Assembly: GCF_024502345.1 (NCBI RefSeq)
Contig: NZ_JALDNN010000001.1
Source of the DNA: Escherichia coli
GTDB lineage: Bacteria > Pseudomonadota > Gammaproteobacteria > Enterobacterales > Enterobacteriaceae
Length of the DNA: 64,000 bases
Strand: one strand, 5' to 3'
Shown here: one piece after another, positions 11,139 to 45,365 of the stretch
Layout: each line of letters begins with the position of its first letter
Numbering within the stretch: position 1 is the stretch's first letter
Notes under the pieces: model-generated
The model's database searches: none
What the model was told of the DNA's origin: nothing
What the model saw: the letters and a program-made list of their open reading frames with translations, nothing else
Program-made: the position numbers and the translations under genes

Positions 11139-11210
11139 ATGTCTGTGCGTTTCCATTTGAGTATCCTGAAAACGGGCTTTTCAGCATGGAACGTACATAT
11201 TAAATAGTAG

Positions 11211-11576
<366 letters not shown>

Positions 11577-24927: not shown

Positions 24928-26469
<1,542 letters not shown>

Positions 26470-26537
26470 CCTTAAAGAAGCGTTCTTTGCAGTGCTCACA
26501 CAGATTGTCTGATGAAAATGAGCAGTAAAACCTCTAC

Positions 26538-26614
<77 letters not shown>

Positions 26615-26656
26615 AATTTGCACGGCAAATTTGAAGAGGTTTTAACTACATGTTAT

Positions 26657-26732
26657 GGGGCTATAGCTCAGCTGGGAGAGCGCCTGCTTTGCACGCAGGA
26701 GGTCTGCGGTTCGATCCCGCATAGCTCCACCA
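26657..26732 (+). tRNA. alaU: tRNA-Ala (TGC anticodon)
   Basis: GGGGCTATAGCTCAGCTGGGAGAGCGCCTGCTTTGCACGCAGGAGG...CTCCACCA, 76 nt. Confidence 0.95.
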
Positions 26733-26915
26733 TCTCTGTAGTGATTAAATAAAAAATACTTCAGAGTGTACCTGAAAAGGTTCACTGCGAAGTTTTGCTC
26801 TTTAAAAATCTGGATCAAGCTGAAAATTGAAACACTGAACAACGAAAGTTGTTCGTGAGTCTCTCAAATTTTCGCAACACGATGATGGATCGCAAGAAAC
26901 ATCTTCGGGTTGTGA

Positions 26916-29818
<2,903 letters not shown>

Positions 29819-29910
29819 ACAACGCCGAAGGTGTTTTGGCGGATGAGAGAAGATTTTCAGCCTGATACAGATTAAATCAGAACGCAGAAGCGGTCTGATA
29901 AAACAGAATT

Positions 29911-30030
29911 TGCCTGGCGGCCTTAGCGCGGTGGTCCCACCTGACCCCATGCCGAACTCAGAAGTGAAACGCCGTAGCGCCGATGGTAGTGTGGGGTCTC
30001 CCCATGCGAGAGTAGGGAACTGCCAGGCAT
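29911..30030 (+). rRNA. rrfD: 5S ribosomal RNA
   Basis: TGCCTGGCGGCCTTAGCGCGGTGG...GGAACTGCCAGGCAT, 120 nt. Confidence 0.96.
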
Positions 30031-30042
30031 CAAATTTAGCGT

Positions 30043-30118
30043 GCTGATATGGCTCAGTTGGTAGAGCGCACCCTTGGTAAGGGTGAGGTCCCCAGTTCGA
30101 CTCTGGGTATCAGCACCA
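30043..30118 (+). tRNA. thrV: tRNA-Thr (GGT anticodon)
   Basis: GCTGATATGGCTCAGTTGGTAGAGCGCACCCTTGGTAAGGGTGAGG...CAGCACCA, 76 nt. Confidence 0.94.
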
Positions 30119-30155
30119 CTTTTTAGGTTAAAGTTCGGCAGATTAGAAAAGAATT

Positions 30156-30275
30156 TGTCTGGCGGCAGTAGCGCGGTGGTCCCACCTGACCCCATGCCGA
30201 ACTCAGAAGTGAAACGCCGTAGCGCCGATGGTAGTGTGGGGTCTCCCCATGCGAGAGTAGGGAACTGCCAGACAT
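30156..30275 (+). rRNA. rrfF: 5S ribosomal RNA, second distal copy
   Basis: TGTCTGGCGGCAGTAGCGCGGTGG...GGAACTGCCAGACAT, 120 nt. Confidence 0.95.
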
Positions 30276-30324: not shown

Positions 30325-30453
30325 GATGTTTGTCGGTGAACACTCTCCCAACCAGGACAAATCCGCCGGGAACGGATTTGAACGTTGCGAAGCAACGGCC
30401 CGGAGGGTGGCGGGCAGGACGCCCGCCATAAACTGCCAGACATCAAATCAAGC

Positions 30454-30489
30454 AAAAAGGCCATCCGAAAGGATGGCCTTTTTGCTTTT
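30454..30489 (+). terminator. rrn terminator T2
   Basis: Hairpin AAAAAGGCCATCC-GAAA-GGATGGCCTTTTTGC. Confidence 0.85.
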
Positions 30490-30504: not shown

Positions 30505-31263
30505 TTAATGGATTACCTGCGATAAAAATGCCCTCGTACGCTCTGATTTAGGATGCGTAAAAAATTCATCAGGTGCAGCTTGCTCCACTATTTCCCCACG
30601 ATCCATAAAAATCACCCGGTCAGCGACGGTTCGCGCAAACCCCATCTCATGCGTTACACACAACATTGTCATACCCGATTGCGCCAGCCCAATCATCGTA
30701 TCCAGCACCTCTTTCACCATCTCCGGATCGAGCGCCGACGTTGGCTCATCAAACAACATAATTTTCGGCTTCATACACAGCGAACGCGCAATGGCAACGC
30801 GTTGCTGCTGACCACCAGAAATTTGTCCGGGAAACTTATGCGCATGTTCGGCAATTCTCACCCGCTCAAGGTAGTGCATCGCCAGAGCTTCAGCCTCTTT
30901 CTTTGGCATCTTGCGTACCCAAATCGGTGCCAGGGTACAGTTCTGTAGAACGGTCAGATGAGGGAAGAGATTGAAATGCTGAAAGACCATTCCCACTTCC
31001 TGCCTGACGCGCTCAATATTGCGGATATCTTCATTAAGCTCGATGCCATCTACTACGATCCGTCCCTGTTGATGTTCTTCCAGATGATTAATACAACGAA
31101 TGGTTGTCGATTTACCGGAACCAGAAGGGCCACACAGAACGATCCGTTCTCCCAGTTGCACGGTTAAATTTATATTTTTCAAAACATGGAATTGTCCATA
31201 CCATTTATTGACGTTTTCCAGCGTAATCATCGCGTTAGCAGGTTGCAATAAAATTTGGCTCAT
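30505..31263 (-). CDS. yhdZ: Amino-acid ABC transporter ATP-binding protein
   Basis: ORF track 252 aa with Walker [10 protein letters not shown] and ABC signature LSGGQQQR. Confidence 0.93.
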
Positions 31264-31270
31264 AGTGTCC

Positions 31271-32377
31271 TCAATGCGGTGTACGCCCGGTGTTAAAACG
31301 TTTTTCCAGATGCTGGCTATAGCGCGACATGCTGAAACAGAAGATCCAGTAGATCAGCGCGGCGAAAACATACCCTTCCGTCGACATACCCAACCAGGCG
31401 GGATCAACGGTTGCCTGCTGAACGCTACTGAAAAGATCGAACAACCCGATAATGATCACCAGGCTGGTATCTTTGAAGAGTGCGATGATGGTATTTACCA
31501 GCCCAGGAATTACCAGCTTCAACGCCTGTGGCAGAATAACCAGCCCCTGAGTTTTCCAGTAACCCAATGCCAGTGACTCTGCCGCTTCATATTGCCCTTT
31601 AGGCAGCGCCTGTAATCCGCCTCGCACGACTTCCGCAACATATGCTGACTGAAACAGGATCACGCCAACCAGCGCGCGGATCAGTTTGTCGATACTGGTG
31701 CCTTCTGCCATAAACAAAGGCAGCATGACCGAAGACATAAACAATACGGTAATCAGCGGTACGCCGCGCCAGAACTCGATAAAAATGACCGATAAGATAC
31801 GCACAATCGGCATATGGGAGCGGCGACCTAACGCCAGTAAGATCCCCCACGGTAGCGCCCCCGCAATCCCAACGGATGCAATAATTAAAGTTAGCGTCAG
31901 CCCGCCCCATTGCCGGGTTTCAACCCGCTCCAGACCAAAAAAACCGCCATACATCAGCCACCAGACAATCAGTGGGTAAATCACCGCCCAGACCGCAATA
32001 TAGCGACCGCGATGCGGGAGTATTTTCCAGAACATTGGTGCGATTGACACAAGGCCAATCAGTAATGCCAGGTTAATTCGCCAGCGTTGGTCGTGTGGGT
32101 AAAGTCCATACATAAACTGACCAAATCGTTCGTGGATGAAGACCCAACAGGCACCGGCTTTTGTGCAGTCGGCACGCGTTGAGCCAACCCAGTTAGCCTG
32201 CAAAAATGCCCAGTTCAGCAACGGTGGGATCAGTTCACACATCAACCATATACAGCCAATAGTCAGTAGGCTATTGCTCCAGCTGGAGAACAGATTTTTT
32301 CGCACCCACACCATAGCGCGGCTTGAGTTATGGCTCGCCGGGCGCGGGGGATGAGACAGCAATACTTTTGTCATCAT
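31271..32377 (-). CDS. yhdY: Amino-acid ABC transporter permease
   Basis: ORF track 368 aa, multi-pass membrane protein. Confidence 0.9.
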
Positions 32378-32383
32378 GACTCC

Positions 32384-33565
32384 TTAGCGTTCCACGATCG
32401 CGATGCGGCGGTTATAGATATTCATCAGCAGCGAGATAGTCAGGCTGATAATCAGATAGACCGACATGGTCATGGCTATCGTCTCGATGGCTTGCCCCGT
32501 CTGGTTCAGCACGGTGCCAGCAAACAGCGAAACCATATCGGGATAGCCAATAGCGGCGGCAAGAGAGGAGTTTTTGACGATGTTGAGATACTGGCTGGTT
32601 AACGGTGGAATAATCACCCGCAGTGCCTGGGGAATAATGACCTGGCGTAGCGTAACCGGGTTGGGTAATCCCAGTGACCGAGCAGCTTCATGTTGACCAT
32701 AAGGCACTGCCTGGATCCCAGCGCGGATAATCTCGGCGATAAATGCAGAGGTATAAACCGAAAGTGCCAGCGTTAAGGCTGCCAGTTCAGGAATTAAAAC
32801 CATCCCGCCGCGGAAGTTAAAGCCTTGTAGGGCTGGGACATCCCAGTGTAGTGCTGCGCCAAAAAGCCATTGCGCCAGTAAAGGCAAACCAATGATCAAC
32901 ACTGCGGCGATGGGCCAGGTGCGGCGCAGTTGTCCGGTCTTTATCTGGTATGTTTTATTAAAGCGGAATAGCCCAACAGAAAGGACTATAGCCATAACAA
33001 CAGCCAGGATAAACGCAATAAATCCGTCTCCCAGCTGCGGTGACGGAATATAAAGCCCACGATTGCTCAAAAAGGCGAGAGCAAACGCGCTCACAGCCTG
33101 GCGTGGTCCGGGCAAATTGCGCAACACGGCAAAGTACCAGAAGAAGATTTGCAGCAGCGGGGGAATATTACGGAAGATCTCAATATAAATTGTGGAAAGC
33201 TTTCGTAGCAGCCAGTTATCCGAAAGTCTCGCCAGACCGATAAAGAAGCCCAAAACAGAAGCGAACACAATACACAATGCAGAAACCAGTAGCGTATTGA
33301 GTAAGCCGACAATAAAAACGCGTCCGTAGGTGTCGCCCTGCTGGTAATCGATCAAATGCTGGACAATACCGAAACCAGCGCCGCGATCCAGAAAGGCAAA
33401 ACCTGAAGTAATGCCACGATTGCTCAGATTCGTTACAGTGTTGTGAAATAACCAACCAACAATGCCGACAACAGCAACAACGGCAAGGATCTGGAATAAC
33501 CAGGCGCGAACCGTAGGGTTGGCAAAAGAGAGTGAGCCTTTAACGGTTGAGCGGCGATGAGACAT
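32384..33565 (-). CDS. yhdX: Amino-acid ABC transporter permease
   Basis: Start at internal ATG (MSHRRSTVKG...) giving 393 aa. Confidence 0.88.
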   Translation of the reverse strand: MSHRRSTVKGSLSFANPTVRAWLFQILAVVAVVGIVGWLFHNTVTNLSNRGITSGFAFLDRGAGFGIVQHLIDYQQGDTYGRVFIVGLLNTLLVSALCIVFASVLGFFIGLARLSDNWLLRKLSTIYIEIFRNIPPLLQIFFWYFAVLRNLPGPRQAVSAFALAFLSNRGLYIPSPQLGDGFIAFILAVVMAIVLSVGLFRFNKTYQIKTGQLRRTWPIAAVLIIGLPLLAQWLFGAALHWDVPALQGFNFRGGMVLIPELAALTLALSVYTSAFIAEIIRAGIQAVPYGQHEAARSLGLPNPVTLRQVIIPQALRVIIPPLTSQYLNIVKNSSLAAAIGYPDMVSLFAGTVLNQTGQAIETIAMTMSVYLIISLTISLLMNIYNRRIAIVER

Positions 33566-33632
33566 AGAAACCTCGGAAAGCATAACGCTGAAGAGAGCGC
33601 CGCCGTAGCGACGCCCGTTACCTCACACCGAC

Positions 33633-34658
33633 TTAACGCACGGGCGGCGCGTACTGAATACCGCCGTTATTCCAGAGATTATTTTGCCCACGTTTAATTT
33701 TCAGCGGGCTTTCTGAACCTACGTTACGCTCGAAAATTTCCGAGTAGTTACCCACCTGTTTGATGATGTTATAGGCCCATTTATTATCCAGCTTCAGATC
33801 CTTGCCGTAATCGCCTTCTTTACCCAGCAGATGTGCCATATCAGGCGTTGCTGGATTAGCCGCTTTTTCATCGACGTTCTGAGAATTGATGCCCATCTCT
33901 TCAGCATTCAGCATGGCGAAAAGCGTCCAGCGTACAATCGAGAACCATTCATCATCGCCACGACGAACTACCGGCCCAAGCGGTTCTTTAGAGATAACCT
34001 CCGGTAAGACAATCCATTCAGCTGGGTTGCTTAATTTGATGCGCAGGGCATACAGTTGCGACTGATCCGAGGCCAGCGTATCGCAGCGACCAGATTCCAG
34101 TGCCTTCGCTGATTCGTCAGAGCGATCGAAAGTCACCGGTGTGTACTTCATATTGTTTGCCTTGAAATAGTCGGCAACGTTGAGTTCGGTATCAGTACCC
34201 GCCTGAATACAGACGGTAGCGCCATCCAGTTCTTTCGCGCTTTTTAGCCCCGCTTTATCGTGCGTCAGGAAGCCAATGCCGTCGTAATAAGTGACGCCAG
34301 TAAATGCCATTCCCATCCCGGCGTCGCGAGATGAAGTCCAGGTCGTATTACGGGAGAGCAAATCCACTTCCCCTGACTGTAAAGCCGTGAAGCGTTCTTT
34401 TGCTGTGAGTGGGGTATATTTCACTTTCGTGTCGTCACCAAATACAGCAGCGGCAACACCACGACAAACATCAACATCAATACCTGAAAACTTACCGTCT
34501 GCATCGGCATAAGAGAACCCAGGTAATCCATCACTGATCCCGCATTGCACAAAACCTTTTTTCTGAACGGCATCAAGCGTCGCGCCAGCATGCGCCTGAT
34601 TTGCAACGGCAAGCAGCACGCTGGCGGCAGCCAGTGTGGCTATCATCATCTTTTTCAT
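33633..34658 (-). CDS. yhdW: Amino-acid ABC transporter periplasmic binding protein (intact)
   Basis: ORF track 341 aa with N-terminal signal peptide MKKMMIATLAAASVLLAVANQAHA. Confidence 0.9.
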   Translation of the reverse strand: MKKMMIATLAAASVLLAVANQAHAGATLDAVQKKGFVQCGISDGLPGFSYADADGKFSGIDVDVCRGVAAAVFGDDTKVKYTPLTAKERFTALQSGEVDLLSRNTTWTSSRDAGMGMAFTGVTYYDGIGFLTHDKAGLKSAKELDGATVCIQAGTDTELNVADYFKANNMKYTPVTFDRSDESAKALESGRCDTLASDQSQLYALRIKLSNPAEWIVLPEVISKEPLGPVVRRGDDEWFSIVRWTLFAMLNAEEMGINSQNVDEKAANPATPDMAHLLGKEGDYGKDLKLDNKWAYNIIKQVGNYSEIFERNVGSESPLKIKRGQNNLWNNGGIQYAPPVR

Positions 34659-35088
34659 AATGCTTCCTGTGAGGCGAAAATTATCGTTATAGGACGTTTG
34701 GGAAACGTCTTTTACCTGTCTGTGGCCATCCTCTTATAAGCAAAAGTAGTGCCAGCTTTTGCGCCCGATTTCGCGTCGCAATAAGCTGAGTGTAGACAGG
34801 AAATAATAAAAACAGCGCCCCGCAATGGTGCGAAAATGAAACATGCGCCACATTTTGGCGCAAAATATTTACGCGTGTTTTACTAAGCAGAATAATGATT
34901 GTTAGCGTGAGTATATTTCTGGTGGGAAGTATGAAAGTTAAATTGATGCGTTATTTCGAAAGCAGCGAAATAACGCGATATAACATGCTAAATCAGCAGA
35001 GAATTAGCCAGCAGAATATAGCAATATTTTATCTTATGTAAAGATACTGTATCGTTAAACAGAGCGCGAAACTCCGCGCCCTGTTCAG

Positions 35089-35562: not shown

Positions 35563-38500
35563 TTATCCTTTAAAGCAACGGCGGATCACCACAAAGAACA
35601 CCGGTACGAAGAAGATTGCCAGCAACGTTGCAGAGACCATTCCTCCCATTACCCCGATACCCACAGCGTTCTGCGCGCCACTGCCGGCACCGTTACTGAT
35701 AGCCAGCGGTAATACGCCGAGAATAAAGGCGAGAGAGGTCATCAGGATAGGACGCAGACGCATACGTACTGCCATTAGTGTCGCTTCAACAACACCTTTA
35801 CCCTCTTTCTCCATGAGATCTTTAGCGAACTCAACAATCAAAATAGCGTTTTTGGCCGACAAGCCAATTGTCGTTAGCAAGCCCACCATAAAGTAGACGT
35901 CATTTTTTTGATTAAAGAGTGTCGCCGCCAGCAGCACGCCGACAATCCCTAACGGCACGACCAACATAACCGAGACAGGAATTGACCAGCTTTCATAGAG
36001 TGCAGCAAGGCACAGGAAAACAACCACAAAGGAAATTGCTACCAGAGCGGGAGCCTGGTTTCCCGATAAGCGTTCCTGATACGACATACCCGTCCAGTCA
36101 TAACCAATGCCCGCAGGTAATTTTGACGCAAGGTTTTCCATCAACGCCATGGCATCGCCGGAACTGGTTCCTGGCGCGGCTTCCCCCTGAATCTCCATTG
36201 ACGGCAGACCGTTGTAGCGTTCCAGTCGCGGAGAGCCATACACCCAATGTGAAGTGGTAAAGGCAGAGAATGGCACCATTTCGCCGTTGGCGCTGCGGAC
36301 ATAAAGTTTATCGACATCTTCTGGCAGCATACGGAATTTGGCATCCGCCTGAACATACACCTTTTTCACGCGACCACGGTCGATGAAGTCGTTAACGTAA
36401 GTCCCACCCAGCGCCGTTGAAATGGTCTGATTGATGTCAGAAAGTGAAACACCTAATGCCTGCGCCTTTTCCTGGTCAACTTCCAGTTTAAACTGCGCGG
36501 TGTCTTCCAGGCCATTAGGACGCACGCTGACTAAGCTGGCAGGATGTTGCGCCGCCATACCAAGCAACTGGTTACGGGCCTGGGTTAGGGCATCGTGACC
36601 CAGCCCAGCCTGATCAATTAACTCAAAGTCGAAACCCGTTGCCGTGCCCAGTTCAACAATGGCTGGCATATTGAATGGAATGACAAAACCGTCGCGGATC
36701 TTGCCCAACTCCATTTTGGCACGATGGATTACCGCTTCCGCACTGTTTTCGTCACCACTACGCTCTTCCCACGGTTTCAGACTGACGAAGGCCATACCGG
36801 CGTTTTGTGCCTGGCCGCTGAAGCTAAAGCCGTTAACCGTAAAGACACTTTCAACGTTTGCTTTCTCGTTCTTCAGATAGTAATCCGTCACTTGATCCAA
36901 CACTTTTTGCGTCCGCTCTTGCGTCGCGCCAGCGGGTAACTGAATCATGGTCAGAAAGACACCCTGATCCTCTTCAGGTAAGAAGGAAGACGGAAGACGT
37001 AAAAACAACACCACCATTCCTGCAACAATCAGCGCATAGATCAGTAAATATCGTCCTGTGGAACCGAGGATTTTGCCGACGCTGTTGGTGTAGTGGTTAA
37101 CGCTATGATCGAAGGTGGTATTAAACCAGCCGAAGAAACCGCCCTTATTTTCGTGATGCTCAGCAGAGACGGGTTTAAGCAGCGTTGCACATAACGCAGG
37201 GGTAAGAATCAATGCCACCAGAACAGAAAGCGCCATTGCCGAAACGATGGTGATAGAGAACTGGCGATAAATTGCCCCAGTAGAACCGCCGAAGAATGCC
37301 ATCGGAATAAATACCGCTGACAGCACCATCGCGATACCCACCAGTGCGCCCTGAATTTGCGACATTGATTTTTCCGTCGCTTCTTTTGGCGGGAGCTTAT
37401 CCTCCATCATCACGCGCTCGACGTTCTCCACCACCACTATCGCATCATCGACGAGCAGCCCGATGGCAAGCACCATCCCGAACATCGTTAGTGTGTTGAT
37501 GGAGTAACCAAAAGCGGCGAGGATGGCAAACGTCCCTAACAACACCACGGGTACCGCAATGGTGGGGATCAGCGTTGCTCGCATATTCTGCAAGAACAGA
37601 TACATCACCAGGAACACCAGCATAATAGCTTCGAACAGTGTTTTTACCACTTCGTGAATAGAAAGCTGGACGAATGGCGTGGTGTCATAAGGGTAGAGAA
37701 CCTTCATTCCCTGCGGGAAGAATGGCTGTAATTCCGCCAGTTTTGCCTTAATGGCTTTCGCGGTATCGAGAGCATTCGCGCCGGTTGCCAGCTTAATCCC
37801 CAGGCCCGCCGCCGGTTTTCCGTTGATACGAGCGATAACGTTATAGTTTTCACCGCCAAGTTCAACCCGTGCGACATCTTTCAGGCGTACCACCGAGCCG
37901 TCACTGTTTACGCGCAGGGTCACTTTGCCGAATTCTTCCGGATTTTTTAACCGCGTTTGAGCAATAATCGAGGCATTCAACTGTTGCCCTGGTAACGCTG
38001 GCGTTCCGCCCAACTGTCCGGCAGCGATCTGATCGTTCTGTACCTTCAACTGGTTAATCACATCAACCGGTGTCAGTTTATATTTGTTTAGCAGATCGGC
38101 GTCCAGCCAGATACGCATCGCATACTGTGCGCCGAAAAGCTGTACGTCACCGACGCCATTCAGACGGCTAAGCGTATCTTTAACGTTAGAGGCCACATAG
38201 TCCGAGATATCGTCCTGTGTGGTGTCTGGGTTATCAGAGACAAAGCCCGCCACCATCAAATAGCTGCTACTGGACTTTTCAACACTGATCCCCTGCTGCT
38301 GAACCTCCTGCGGCAGCAACGGCGTGGCGAGCTGGAGTTTGTTCTGCACCTGCACTTGCGCGATATCAGGATCGGTCCCGGACTGGAAGGTAAGGGTAAT
38401 TGTCACGCTACCGGCGGAATCGCTGGTGGAGGACATATACATCAGGTTATCGATACCATTCATATTCTGTTCGATAACCTGCGTCACCGTATCCTGCACG

Positions 38501-38667
38501 GTCTGCGCATCAGCACCTGGATAGTTTGCCGAAACAGAAACCGCAGGCGGTGCAATGGTTGGATACTGAGCGACGGGCAATTGTAGGATCGCCAGTGCGC
38601 CCGCCATCATCAGAATAATGGCCAGCACCCATGCAAATATCGGTCGTCGAATAAAAAAGTTTGCCAT
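35563..38667 (-). CDS. acrF: RND multidrug efflux transporter AcrF
   Basis: ORF track 1034 aa; AcrB-family. Confidence 0.96.
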
Positions 38668-42228: not shown

Positions 42229-43113
42229 TTACTTTGCAATGAGATCGGGGTCAACTTCGCTTAACCGGCTTCGTTTTGACAGGTTGCCGGTCTTTCTTTT
42301 TTTCACTTTCGCCAGTTCTTCCGCAGAGTAATGCGACGCGACATCCAGCCGTCGAAGCCCCATTTTGATGTACTCGCTGTTGATCTCAATACCAATGAAT
42401 TTTCGCCCGCTGGAGACGGCTACGGCACCGGTAGTAAAGCTACCGGCAAACGGGTCGAGAACGATATCGCCTGGGTTGGAAGAGGCGAGAATAATGCGTT
42501 TCAGTAAGGCTTCCGGTTTTTGCGTCGGGTGGTTTTCATATTCATCCATCAAATAACGCACGCGCGGAAAATCCCAGACGTTACCCGGTACTTTTTGATG
42601 ATTGTAAGGCTGTGGAGGATTTTTGCGATAATCGATCAACGCGCGCTGCGATCCGGTTTTGGCTTCTACCAGAATAGCATCACCGTTGAACGTGTAGTTC
42701 TTTGCGTCTTTCACCATCATCAGGATGGGTTCATACATGGAACCGTAGTGTTTTTTCGCCTGCACTCCAGAACTGTCATATGACCAGACGATGCGACTTT
42801 TGATGGTAAAAAGCTTGCGGCACTGGAGATCGATAAAGGGCATGTTTTCCGTACTGTTCATGATGTACATGCTGCCCTGCTTTTTCAGAACGCGGTGGCA
42901 CTCTGCAATCACTTCAAACAGCCAGTCGATAAACAGATCTTCTTTCCAGGCTTCGATCAGACCATCAAAATTTTTACCGATGTTATACGGTGGGTCGGCA
43001 AAGATCAGATCGACGCTTTCAGTAGGTAGCTTTTTAAGTTCGGCAAGGGCATCACCGTGAATAATGGTCTTAGCTTCATTACCAAACCGGGTCGGTTCAC
43101 ATCCTGTTCTCAT
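42229..43113 (-). CDS. yhdJ: DNA adenine (N6) methyltransferase YhdJ
   Basis: ORF track; DPPY catalytic motif (IFADPPYNIGK); start set at ATG 43111-43113. Confidence 0.92.
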   Translation of the reverse strand: MRTGCEPTRFGNEAKTIIHGDALAELKKLPTESVDLIFADPPYNIGKNFDGLIEAWKEDLFIDWLFEVIAECHRVLKKQGSMYIMNSTENMPFIDLQCRKLFTIKSRIVWSYDSSGVQAKKHYGSMYEPILMMVKDAKNYTFNGDAILVEAKTGSQRALIDYRKNPPQPYNHQKVPGNVWDFPRVRYLMDEYENHPTQKPEALLKRIILASSNPGDIVLDPFAGSFTTGAVAVSSGRKFIGIEINSEYIKMGLRRLDVASHYSAEELAKVKKRKTGNLSKRSRLSEVDPDLIAK

Positions 43114-43132
43114 GGTCACTCCCTTTGTGACA

Positions 43133-43177
43133 CCTATAAAAAAGGCGCTTCCCCATGCCGAGTAGCGCCTTTTTAAT
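43133..43177 (-). terminator. Intrinsic terminator that in K-12-like genomes lies directly after fis; here on the far side of the insertion
   Basis: 8-bp stem AAGGCGCT / AGCGCCTT with 14-nt loop, T-tracts on both sides. Confidence 0.7.
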
Positions 43178-43197
43178 CAAGCATTTAGCTAACCTGA

Positions 43198-43214
43198 ATT
43201 AGTTCATGCCGTAT
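43198..43214. repeat. 17-bp direct repeat TTAGTTCATGCCGTATT, distal att-like copy
   Basis: 17/17 identical to 45069-45085, which is the fis stop codon plus last codons. Confidence 0.85.
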
Positions 43215-43382
43215 TGTAAAATACAGAGTCATTATACGTAATTTATTATCACTCTAGATAATTTGTATTCATCATAAATAATTGATGCGGAAAGAGATAT
43301 TTATTTTTTATTGGCTCGCATTGTATCATCAGTTATCAGTTACTCCCTGCATACAGTTGTCAAAAAGGTTGTCATTAACTCT

Positions 43383-43551
43383 ATGGCCGAAAATAAACTC
43401 TCAGATGTTCAATTGCGTGCGTTAACCCGCAAAGTCATCGAAAAACCTTTTGATGTTGCTGACGGTGGCCAAGTTGGGTGAAAACCTGCTATGCAGCTAC
43501 CGCATAAGGGTAGTGGATTCCGCTGAAATCTTGCCGTTCATCCGATCATAA
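43383..43551 (+). pseudogene. Tyrosine-integrase N-terminal (arm-type DNA-binding domain) fragment, frameshifted and truncated
   Basis: Hand translation: MAENKLSDVQLRALTRKVIEKPFDVADGGQVG-stop, then +1 frame LGENLLCSYRIRVVDSAEILPFIRS; resembles the EKPY..DG(N/G)GLYL...WxxRY pattern of P4-type integrase N-termini. Confidence 0.45.
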
Positions 43552-43575
43552 CATCACAACAGTTGTTGCCCATTA

Positions 43576-43606
43576 CCCTGGCGAATGCCGGGGCTTTTTT
43601 TATTTT
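43576..43606 (+). terminator. Candidate intrinsic terminator downstream of the integrase fragment
   Basis: Imperfect stem CCCTGG..CCGGGG followed by CTTTTTTTATTTT. Confidence 0.3.
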
Positions 43607-43619
43607 CAAAGTGACGCCT

Positions 43620-43923
43620 AGGTGTCATTAATTTATAAGGTGTCATGGTAGGTGTCATTGTTCTCAAGCCATAACCCGCAAGGGTTGCGACATTACTAAT
43701 GACACCTATGACACCTATGACAGCATTTTTAAAGAAAATAACGACCACTGTAATAATGTAACAGTGGTCGTTATACTTTATAGAAATGGGTGTCATGGTG
43801 TCACAGGTGTCATTCATTACAGTATCTTGTTTGTATTTTTCTTTAATAATCAGCGTGTTTCCCGCTATGACACCTAATGACACCTTTCCAACATAACGCC
43901 GTCATGGTGACATTAGGTGTCAT
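43620..43923. repeat. Array of 13 copies of the 9-bp motif AGGTGTCAT in both orientations
   Basis: Forward copies at 43620, 43638, 43650, 43789, 43797 (GGTGTCAC), 43805, 43906 (GGTGACAT), 43915; reverse ATGACACCT at 43699, 43708, 43717 (degenerate), 43867, 43877. Confidence 0.85.
43738..43774. repeat. Perfect palindrome with 14-bp arms and 9-nt AT-rich loop, at the centre of the motif array
   Basis: ATAACGACCACTGT-AATAATGTA-ACAGTGGTCGTTAT. Confidence 0.85.
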
Positions 43924-44274
43924 CGCCATCTGCTGCCAAAAAAGTCAAGGTACTTCCGAGGGGGGTACAGCCTGCGGGGGCATTGGTCCCGCGTAATTCG
44001 CGTTGTGCGTGCCCCTACAAAACTCACTTTATGATTACGTCAAGTAAATCAATCATTTATGTGAATCCTATCAAAGCACTGGCACCATACGTGCGCGATT
44101 GCAAAATAAAGCGAACACGTTTTACACACGCTGAATTGTAAAGATGTGTAAATATCGATTACGCCGGATTATGCCGGGTTATTTGCAAGTATTCAGGGTT
44201 ATAAGTTACTGATTTTACATTAAAAAGCTCACATTGTGGCTATTGTGTTCGGTCTGGTTACTGTATATCTTTAA

Positions 44275-44991
44275 GTCATTCCAGGCGATTTAGCTGGCCT
44301 GGCGCTGGCAGGTTATCAGATTTACCGCCATTGGGCTGGTGTGAAGGCTTTCTTTGGCGGAGTGGGTGAAGGCATCAAATCCGGGCTGGAACCGCTTAGC
44401 GACGCTCTGAGCCGCCTTTATGAACGCATGGGGCCGCTGAAACCTGTCATTGATGGTGTGGGTGCTGCGGTTAAGACGGTTTTCAACTGGTTCACGTCAT
44501 TGACCGAGCCGGTCAAGTACAGTGGCGAGGAACTGGATAAGGCCGGTAAAATGGGGATGACGTTCGGTAAGACCCTGGCGGCTGGCATCGAGCTTGTGAC
44601 CGCACCGATCACGTTCCTGATTGATAAGATTCTGTGGGTGTCTGACAACATCGGCAACCTGACCAACAAGGCACTGGAGTTTAAAAACGCCGTGTCTGAT
44701 GTTGCTGGTGGTGCGTGGCAGAAAACCAAAGATTTCTTTACCGCACCATTCCGCGACGATGTACAGCAGCCAGCAGCAACCACTGCCTCTGGTGCTGCCC
44801 TGCCGTCACCTGCACTGGCCAACCGCTCTGGTGGCACTACGGTGCATAGCAACGACCAGTACCACATCAGCGTGAAGGCAGAACCTGGTATGAATGAAGA
44901 TGCATTAGCCCGGAAGGTGATACAGCAACTACGACAGCAACAAGCAGTAAGGCAGCGAAGCATGATGATAGATGGCGCGCAAACACCATAA
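44275..44991 (+). pseudogene. 5'-truncated ORF, possibly a phage tail tape-measure-like protein C-terminal region
   Basis: Frame is open from 44275 (stop at 44272-44274) with no good start or RBS; Gly/Ala-rich and hydrophobic segments (GVGAAVKTVFNWF, ITFLIDKILWV); product guessed from composition only. Confidence 0.35.
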
Positions 44992-45068
44992 GGGTTGTCA
45001 GTACGGTTGCAACAAAAAGTAAAGGGACTGAAATAGCCCCTTTAATTTCATGCCGTTACAGCTTGACT

Positions 45069-45085
45069 TTAGTTCATGCCGTATT
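45069..45085. repeat. 17-bp direct repeat TTAGTTCATGCCGTATT, fis-proximal att-like copy overlapping the fis stop codon
   Basis: Reverse complement encodes ..K-Y-G-M-N-stop of Fis. Confidence 0.85.
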
Positions 45086-45365
45086 TTTTCAATTTTTTAC
45101 GCAGCGTACCACGGTTGATGCCCATCATCAGCGCAGCACGGGTCTGGTTACCACGGGTGTATTGCATCACCATGTCCAACAGGGGCTGTTCTACTTCAGC
45201 CAGTACCAGCTCATAGAGGTCATTCACATCCTGACCATTCAGTTGAGCAAAATAGTTCTTCAGTGCCTGTTTAACCGAGTCACGCAGGGGTTTTTGGGTT
45301 ACCTGATCCTGAGAGTTAACGGTAGAAACGGTCAGTACGTCAGAATTTACGCGTTGTTCGAACAT
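45069..45365 (-). CDS. fis: DNA-binding nucleoid protein Fis
   Basis: ORF track 98 aa [51 protein letters not shown]... Confidence 0.97.

What the first reader, a model, noticed from the sequence alone, without database searches (positions are those of the whole stretch)
33633..34658. yhdW is an intact 341-aa ORF here
I recall yhdW being annotated as an interrupted pseudogene in K-12 MG1655, but I am not certain. Here it is one uninterrupted ORF with a signal peptide, so the yhdWXYZ transporter may be fully functional in this strain.
Basis: partly seen in the sequence, partly recalled or inferred. Interest (0 to 1): 0.25.

Follow-up and report, generated by a model that had tools for sequence, protein, structure and literature searches.

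The report
Intact yhdW amino-acid binding-protein gene
This strain carries the normal, unbroken copy of yhdW, the periplasmic binding protein of an amino-acid ABC transporter; the lab strain K-12 is the exception because it lost one base, and this is already published, so the finding is correct but ordinary.

Summary
Window 33633..34658, on the minus strand, is one uninterrupted ATG-to-TAA ORF of 341 aa with a Sec-type signal peptide (MKKMMIATLAAASVLLAVANQAHA|G) and an SBP_bac_3 domain.

In MG1655 (NC_000913.3) yhdW/b3268 is annotated as a 1025-bp pseudogene. The lesion is the loss of a single A at gene nucleotide 68 (His23 codon CAT; window position 34591). This gives a 78-aa out-of-frame product. 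It is the only indel across the 4.8-kb yhdV-yhdZ stretch.

The intact state is the species norm, not a peculiarity of this strain:
- 5394 of 5426 complete E. coli genomes carry the gene.
- Only 355 carry the exact K-12 deletion allele, and the 60 listed are almost all named K-12 laboratory derivatives.
- The exact 341-aa protein is on record on at least 1000 contigs.

yhdX, yhdY and yhdZ, the sigma54 promoter and the operon terminator are also intact, so a complete nitrogen-regulated polar-amino-acid importer is plausible here.

All of this, including the nucleotide-68 deletion, is already reported in a 2026 bioRxiv preprint. That preprint also shows that Citrobacter rodentium YhdW binds asparagine (Kd 0.37 uM).

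Verdict: real, correctly interpreted, already known, low interest.

The parts
33633..34658 (-). yhdW CDS, 341 aa: periplasmic substrate-binding protein of the YhdWXYZ amino-acid ABC transporter (intact allele)
   Evidence: ORF listing and sequence; PF00497 SBP_bac_3; 96.8-99.9% nucleotide identity to the gene annotated 'amino acid ABC transporter substrate-binding protein' in the 39 full-length sampled hits, and >=95% in all 5418 matching complete E. coli genomes; exact protein on >=1000 contigs; 58% identity over residues 22-341 to PDB 4z9n
34587..34658 (-). Signal-peptide coding part (residues 1-24, MKKMMIATLAAASVLLAVANQAHA, predicted cleavage after A24)
   Evidence: Sequence inspection and hydrophobicity; homology to the solved mature protein starts at residue 22
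34591..34591 (-). The A (gene nucleotide 68, second base of His23 codon CAT) that is deleted in E. coli K-12 and makes yhdW a pseudogene there
   Evidence: Alignments to NC_000913.3 and MG1655p; same lesion reported in bioRxiv 10.64898/2026.05.04.722672
34665..34668 (-). Shine-Dalgarno AGGA, 6 nt before the ATG
   Evidence: Read directly from the sequence
34739..34754 (-). sigma54 -24/-12 promoter element TGGCACTACTTTTGCT (yhdWp), starting 96 nt upstream of the ATG
   Evidence: Only exact match to TGGCAC-N5-TTGCW in the window, 0.16 expected by chance; identical to the sigma54 ChIP-seq site OS34 upstream of b3268 in K-12 (PMC4591121); yhdWp listed as a perfect-consensus sigma54 promoter (PMC7045595)
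34844..34862 (-). Inverted repeat TGCGCCAAAATGTGGCGCA about 90-108 nt upstream of the -24 element; candidate enhancer-binding-protein (NtrC or ZraR) site. This is an inference.
   Evidence: its position is typical of a sigma54 upstream activator site; NtrC ChIP peak assigned to yhdWXYZ in K-12 (PMC4066584). Binding to this repeat was not tested.
32384..33565 (-). yhdX, 393 aa, permease subunit (intact)
   Evidence: exact protein on 748 contigs
31271..32374 (-). yhdY, 367 aa, permease subunit (intact)
   Evidence: exact protein on 36 contigs
30505..31263 (-). yhdZ, 252 aa, ATP-binding subunit (intact: Walker [10 protein letters not shown], signature ISGGQQQR, Walker B IMLFDE, H-loop VTHEM)
   Evidence: exact protein on 99 contigs
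30450..30487 (-). Intrinsic-terminator-like hairpin (17 pairs) 18 nt after the yhdZ stop codon; probable end of the operon

Best explanation
Window 33633..34658 (minus strand) is the wild-type, uninterrupted allele of yhdW. It is the first gene of the yhdWXYZ operon, which encodes an AapJQMP/BztABCD-type polar-amino-acid ABC importer.

Shown here:
- The ORF, its signal peptide and its SBP_bac_3 domain are intact.
- The two permease genes, the ATPase gene, the sigma54 promoter and the terminator are intact.
- K-12 differs by loss of one A at nucleotide 68. That deletion uncouples the signal peptide from the mature domain and yields a 78-aa product.

Inferred mechanism:
1. Under nitrogen limitation, NtrC (ZraR has also been reported) activates sigma54-RNA polymerase at yhdWp.
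2. Pre-YhdW is exported by Sec and cleaved after Ala24.
3. The mature two-lobed protein captures a polar L-amino acid. Asparagine is the best candidate, by analogy with the C. rodentium orthologue.
4. It docks on the YhdX/YhdY heterodimer, and YhdZ hydrolyses ATP to drive import.

The intact state is the norm in E. coli. The K-12 lineage is a recent loss-of-function exception.
For: ORF and signal peptide. Domains: SBP_bac_3, BPD_transp_1 in YhdX and YhdY, ABC_tran in YhdZ with all ATPase motifs.

K-12 pseudogene annotation. Single-A deletion at nucleotide 68 as the only indel in 4.8 kb. The K-12 out-of-frame product is 78 aa.

Apart from the deletion, K-12 yhdW differs from the window by 18 substitutions, of which only one is non-synonymous (I64V), and the mature-domain frame is still open in K-12. 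The lesion is therefore young.

Population:
- The gene is present at >=80% coverage in 5394/5426 complete genomes.
- The exact K-12 deletion 70-mer is in 355 genomes, and the 60 listed are almost all named K-12 lab derivatives.
- The exact intact 71-mer is in 3609 genomes.
- 37 of 40 evenly sampled genomes match over the full 1026 nt.
- The exact protein is on >=1000 contigs.

Regulation: exact sigma54 element, identical to the ChIP-seq-mapped site in K-12 (PMC4591121); NtrC ChIP peak at yhdWXYZ (PMC4066584).

Function: closest solved structure is 4z9n, E=5e-122 and 58% identity. The preprint 10.64898/2026.05.04.722672 reports the same deletion, Asn binding by C. rodentium YhdW (Kd 0.37 uM) and a colonisation defect of mutants.
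Against: No experiment on this allele exists in what I could read. Ligand specificity is transferred from C. rodentium YhdW, and I did not measure its identity to this protein. In C. rodentium the system was not the primary Asn importer in vitro, so the physiological substrate remains uncertain. The window's YhdX, YhdY and YhdZ differ from K-12 by 3, 4 and 4 residues, including YhdZ P37L eight residues before Walker A, and the effect of these changes is untested. The signal peptide was judged by inspection only.
Confidence: 0.9

Rival explanations
1. The ORF is intact, but the transporter is still non-functional or cryptic in this strain because of missense changes in the partner subunits or because it is not expressed.
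For: Relative to K-12, YhdX has 3, YhdY 4 and YhdZ 4 amino-acid differences, including YhdZ P37L close to Walker A and YhdY W46C. The YhdY allele is seen on only 36 contigs. yhdWp was among the weakest sigma54 promoters in a reporter study (PMC7045595).
Against: All four ORFs are full-length, with domains and ATPase motifs intact. Each exact protein recurs in independent public assemblies, on 36-748 contigs, which argues against private deleterious mutations. The promoter, Shine-Dalgarno and terminator are unchanged from K-12.
Confidence: 0.07
2. With or without YhdW, the YhdXYZ core mainly serves antibiotic homeostasis or efflux, as proposed for K-12, so the intact binding protein changes little.
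For: In K-12, deleting yhdWXYZ raises lomefloxacin accumulation and susceptibility to lomefloxacin and mecillinam (preprint).
Against: In C. rodentium, which has the complete system, deletion does not alter antibiotic susceptibility, and the phenotype is instead in host colonisation. The architecture is that of a type I binding-protein-dependent importer.
Confidence: 0.1
3. The K-12 'pseudogene' is a sequencing or annotation artefact, so there is no real difference between this strain and K-12.
For: None found. Single-base indels are a classic error type in old reference sequences.
Against: The identical deletion allele is present in 355 independently assembled complete genomes. These include many separate K-12 sublines: MG1655, C600, J53, DH1, DH5alpha, NCM3722, RR1 and HST04. 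It is also reported independently in the preprint.
Confidence: 0.01

Closest known systems
E. coli K-12 MG1655 yhdW (b3268), annotated pseudogene
   Same: Same locus and synteny (acrEF-yhdV-yhdW-yhdXYZ-rrnD). About 98% nucleotide identity, with an identical sigma54 promoter and Shine-Dalgarno.
   Different: K-12 lacks the A at nucleotide 68, so translation leaves the frame at codon 23 and stops after 78 aa. The window has the A and encodes the full 341 aa. Otherwise there is one amino-acid difference (I64V).
Intact YhdW of other E. coli (e.g. WP_000738579.1 in strain AMSCJX02)
   Same: 341 aa, same locus, 99.9% nucleotide identity. The window's exact protein is on record on >=1000 contigs.
   Different: Nothing of substance. 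No complete genome in the collection matched the window's 1026-nt gene at 100% (best 99.9%), but the protein itself is a common allele.
Citrobacter rodentium YhdW/YhdWXYZ (bioRxiv 10.64898/2026.05.04.722672)
   Same: Orthologous complete four-gene system. The preprint gives 85-92% identity between C. rodentium and E. coli for YhdX, YhdY and YhdZ. The SBP has 4z9n as closest structure in both cases.
   Different: Different species. Asn binding (Kd 0.37 uM) and the mouse-colonisation phenotype were measured only for the C. rodentium proteins. I did not measure YhdW identity to the window protein.
BztA/BztABCD (Brucella ovis structure 4z9n; Rhodobacter capsulatus Glu/Gln/Asp/Asn transporter) and AapJQMP of Rhizobium leguminosarum
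   Same: Same family and architecture: an SBP of about 340 aa, two long permeases and one ATPase. There is 58% identity to 4z9n over residues 22-341. Nitrogen-limitation control is reported for Aap, as cited in the preprint.
   Different: These are alphaproteobacterial paralogue/orthologue systems with broader reported specificity. I did not compare sequences with AapJ or R. capsulatus BztA directly.

Membership tests
E. coli yhdW orthologue (b3268 locus) | Conserved position between yhdV/acrEF and yhdXYZ/rrnD | tested here: met
   Window order: rrn operon 24928..30273 (+), yhdZYXW 30505..34658 (-), yhdV, acrF, acrE. This is the same as in MG1655 and AMSCJX02.
E. coli yhdW orthologue (b3268 locus) | Near-identity to annotated yhdW genes and proteins | tested here: met
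   96.8-99.9% nucleotide identity in the 39 full-length sampled hits, and >=95% in all 5418 matching complete genomes. The exact protein is in the public collection, named YhdW.
Binding-protein-dependent polar-amino-acid ABC importers, AapJ/BztA type (TC 3.A.1.3; the TC number is from memory) | Periplasmic SBP with family-3 solute-binding domain | tested here: met
   PF00497, 59.7 bits against a cut-off of 26.4.
Binding-protein-dependent polar-amino-acid ABC importers, AapJ/BztA type (TC 3.A.1.3; the TC number is from memory) | N-terminal Sec signal peptide on the SBP | tested here: met
   n/h/c regions and an AHA|G cleavage motif, by inspection. No dedicated predictor was available, so this is a weaker test.
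Binding-protein-dependent polar-amino-acid ABC importers, AapJ/BztA type (TC 3.A.1.3; the TC number is from memory) | Full-length homology to a BztA-type SBP (about 340 aa, longer than the ~250-aa LAO/HisJ type) | tested here: met
   4z9n E=5e-122, residues 22-341 against 6-328, 58% identity.
Binding-protein-dependent polar-amino-acid ABC importers, AapJ/BztA type (TC 3.A.1.3; the TC number is from memory) | Adjacent genes for two permeases and one ATPase | tested here: met
   YhdX and YhdY have BPD_transp_1. YhdZ has ABC_tran with Walker A, signature, Walker B and H-loop.
Binding-protein-dependent polar-amino-acid ABC importers, AapJ/BztA type (TC 3.A.1.3; the TC number is from memory) | Binds and imports a polar L-amino acid | not testable with these tools
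   Only literature on the C. rodentium orthologue is available (Asn, Kd 0.37 uM).
Lysine/arginine/ornithine SBP subfamily (TIGR01096) | Score at or above the curated cut-off | tested here: not met
   198.8 bits against a cut-off of 256.35. It is related to the LAO subfamily but not a member.
sigma54/NtrC (nitrogen-regulated) regulon | -24 GG / -12 GC promoter element upstream of the first gene | tested here: met
   TGGCACTACTTTTGCT at 34739..34754 (-), exact match, 0.16 expected by chance. It is identical to the ChIP-mapped K-12 site.
sigma54/NtrC (nitrogen-regulated) regulon | Activator (NtrC) binding site upstream | tested here: inconclusive
   An inverted repeat at 34844..34862 and a GCACCA half-site lie in the right place. 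The NtrC ChIP peak is reported for K-12 only.

The most novel reading that the evidence does not exclude
Because this strain keeps the binding protein, its YhdWXYZ would act as a nitrogen-starvation-induced, high-affinity asparagine/polar-amino-acid scavenger that aids gut or urinary-tract colonisation. The SBP-less K-12 version has drifted to a different role in drug homeostasis. On this reading, re-inserting one A at nucleotide 68 in K-12 should switch the phenotype. The idea is already proposed in the 2026 preprint for C. rodentium versus K-12. Only its direct test within E. coli would be new.
Probability: 0.3. Interest if true: 0.3.

Novelty: already known. Interest (0 to 1): 0.08.

Why it matters
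It matters little for discovery. It is a reminder that K-12 is not representative of the species at this locus. Work on YhdWXYZ in K-12, including knockout-library phenotypes and antibiotic-susceptibility screens, studies a transporter that lacks its binding protein. Most natural E. coli, including this strain, carry the complete system. For annotating this window, the gene should simply be called yhdW (amino-acid ABC transporter substrate-binding protein), intact.

Tried and rejected
1. Reading NC_000913.3 (L002) in the Python sandbox failed because the file was not exported. I worked around this by making alignments that include it, which also showed that MG1655p and NC_000913.3 are identical over the 4.8 kb.

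2. I considered whether K-12 could still make a periplasmic YhdW by re-initiation. The mature-domain frame is open in K-12, but its first start-like codon is a GTG at nucleotide 108, downstream of the signal peptide. Any such product would lack an export signal, so I rejected this.

3. I considered a sequencing error in the K-12 reference and rejected it: 355 assemblies carry the deletion.

4. The sigma70-type promoter scan around the operon gave no more hits than shuffled sequence (5 found against 6.6 expected), so nothing was drawn from it.

5. I did not run the large homology searches, structure prediction or fold search. The identity of the gene was already settled by exact matches and a solved homologue at E=5e-122, so the cost was not justified.

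6. I could not enumerate all 355 carriers of the K-12 allele to prove that each is a K-12 derivative. Only the 60 best were listed.

Full report
OBSERVATION

The window contains an ORF at 33633..34658 on the minus strand, running ATG to TAA, of 341 codons with no internal stop.

The N-terminus MKKMMIATLAAASVLLAVANQAHA|GATLD has a basic n-region, a 16-residue hydrophobic core (mean Kyte-Doolittle 2.34) and an Ala-His-Ala motif at -3/-1. That is a standard Sec signal peptide. I judged it by inspection, since no dedicated predictor was available. A Shine-Dalgarno AGGA lies 6 nt before the ATG.

The protein matches Pfam SBP_bac_3 (PF00497). Among NCBIfam models it is nearest to, but below the cut-off of, the lysine/arginine/ornithine binding-protein subfamily.

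COMPARISON WITH K-12

- In NC_000913.3, yhdW (b3268) is annotated as a pseudogene at 3419042-3420066, which is 1025 bp.
- In the RefSeq annotation of an MG1655 derivative, the same CDS is flagged 'frameshifted'.
- Alignment shows that K-12 lacks a single A at gene nucleotide 68, the middle base of the His23 codon CAT. On the window this base is position 34591.
- Across the whole yhdV-yhdZ stretch (4.8 kb) this is the only indel between the window and NC_000913.3.
- The deletion sits two residues before the predicted signal-peptidase site. In K-12 the signal peptide therefore runs into an out-of-frame tail and stops after 78 aa. The mature domain stays open in another frame, but it has no start codon before nucleotide 108 and no export signal.
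- If the missing A is restored in silico, K-12 and the window differ by 18 substitutions, only one of them non-synonymous (I64V). The K-12 lesion is therefore recent, and the gene had been under purifying selection until then.

HOW UNUSUAL IS THE INTACT STATE?

It is not unusual.
- 5394 of 5426 complete E. coli genomes hold at least 80% of the gene, at 95-99.9% identity.
- In an evenly spaced sample of 40 genomes, 37 match over the full 1026 nt. Two match over 1025 nt (an MG1655 derivative and a 4.68-Mb strain). One has lost most of the gene.
- A 70-mer of the K-12 allele centred on the deletion is matched exactly in 355 genomes. The 60 listed are almost all named K-12 laboratory strains: MG1655 sublines, C600, J53, DH1, DH5alpha, NCM3722, RR1, HST04 and others.
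- The corresponding intact 71-mer of the window is matched exactly in 3609 genomes.
- The window's exact 341-aa protein is in the public protein collection on at least 1000 contigs, named YhdW or 'general L-amino acid transport system substrate-binding protein'. Its 90%-identity cluster also includes Citrobacter koseri and Siccibacter proteins.

THE REST OF THE SYSTEM

- Downstream on the same strand lie yhdX (32384..33565, 393 aa), yhdY (31271..32374, 367 aa) and yhdZ (30505..31263, 252 aa). All are full-length.
- YhdX and YhdY carry the BPD_transp_1 permease domain. YhdZ carries ABC_tran with Walker A (GPSGSGKST), signature (ISGGQQQR), Walker B (IMLFDE) and the H-loop.
- They differ from the K-12 proteins by 3, 4 and 4 residues respectively. 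Each exact sequence recurs in public assemblies, on 748, 36 and 99 contigs, so these are circulating alleles rather than private lesions.
- A 17-pair terminator-like hairpin follows yhdZ at 30450..30487.

REGULATION

- Starting 96 nt upstream of the ATG is TGGCACTACTTTTGCT (34739..34754, minus strand). It is the only exact match to the sigma54 -24/-12 consensus in the 64-kb window, with 0.16 expected by chance.
- It is identical to the K-12 sequence and to the site OS34 that sigma54 ChIP-seq maps upstream of b3268 (PMC4591121).
- yhdWp is listed among sigma54 promoters with a perfect consensus (PMC7045595).
- NtrC ChIP-seq reports a peak assigned to yhdWXYZ, 'polar amino acid transport' (PMC4066584).
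- The 2026 preprint cites earlier work placing the operon under ZraSR as well.
- An inverted repeat TGCGCCAAAATGTGGCGCA at 34844..34862 lies where an upstream activator site would be expected. Whether NtrC or ZraR binds it was not tested here.

FUNCTION

- The closest solved structure by sequence is 4z9n (E=5e-122, 58% identity over residues 22-341).
- The preprint by Borde et al. (bioRxiv 10.64898/2026.05.04.722672) identifies 4z9n as BztA of Brucella ovis and relates YhdW to BztA and AapJ.
- The same preprint reports exactly the lesion found here: deletion at nucleotide 68 in K-12, frameshift from residue 23, 78-aa product. It also reports conservation of the intact system in E. coli and Citrobacter, and degeneration in Shigella.
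- It shows high-affinity asparagine binding by C. rodentium YhdW (Kd 0.37 uM), no major role in Asn uptake in vitro, and reduced early colonisation by mutants in mice.
- In K-12, deleting the SBP-less operon raises lomefloxacin accumulation and susceptibility.
- My mechanistic reading is therefore a conventional type I binding-protein-dependent importer for a polar amino acid, induced by nitrogen limitation. Sequence integrity is shown. Export, ligand and transport are inferred.

VERDICT

However, the intact allele is the species norm, the K-12 frameshift is long annotated, and the exact comparison has been published. The finding is already known and of low interest. The only practical message is that K-12 is atypical at this locus.

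SIDE OBSERVATIONS

These are listed separately. The main one is a roughly 1.9-kb decayed remnant of an integrase/VapE/tape-measure island between yhdJ and fis.

Noticed in passing
window 43120..45068 (between yhdJ 42229..43119 and fis 45069..45365, both minus strand): About 1.9 kb of extra DNA at the yhdJ|fis junction. At that junction, strain APEC37 and others carry a 9.5-kb integrase/VapE/'phage tail tape measure' island. The window keeps only fragments: an internal piece at 43466..44292 (99.5-99.8% identical), a 216-aa ORF at 44341..44991 that looks like the C-terminal end of the tape-measure gene, and a 56-aa ORF at 43311..43481 that may be a fragment of the integrase. None of the 5426 complete E. 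coli genomes has >=80% of this stretch in one place. It appears to be a deleted, decayed form of the island.
   Followed up: partly
window 33633..34658: No complete E. coli genome in the collection matches the window's yhdW DNA at 100% (best is 99.9%, strain AMSCJX02), although the encoded protein is a very common exact allele. The 24-kb neighbourhood also matches the best genomes at only about 99%. The source strain is probably not among the 5426 complete RefSeq genomes.
   Followed up: no
window 35563..38667 (minus strand): acrF is an intact 1034-aa ORF here, whereas it is annotated as frameshifted in the otherwise best-matching strain APEC37.
   Followed up: no
window 34844..34862 (minus strand): A perfect 7-bp-arm inverted repeat TGCGCCA-AAATG-TGGCGCA lies about 90-108 nt upstream of the yhdW sigma54 -24 element, followed by a GCACCA half-site at 34826..34831 (173 nt upstream of the ATG). 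It is a candidate activator binding site.
   Followed up: partly
window 31153..31155 (codon 37 of yhdZ, minus strand): YhdZ carries Leu instead of the K-12 Pro at residue 37, eight residues before the Walker A motif ([21 protein letters not shown]). The exact protein is on 99 contigs, so it is a circulating allele. Its effect on activity is unknown.
   Followed up: partly
window 24928..30273 (plus strand): A complete rRNA operon with the rrnD-type arrangement: 16S, tRNA-Ile and tRNA-Ala (as annotated at the corresponding positions in APEC37), 23S, 5S, a tRNA annotated tRNA-Thr in K-12 and APEC37, and a second 5S. It converges on the yhdZ terminator region. An Rfam StyR-44 hit lies just before the 23S gene, and an Alpha_RBS leader lies at 11141..11252. 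All of this looks ordinary.
   Followed up: no
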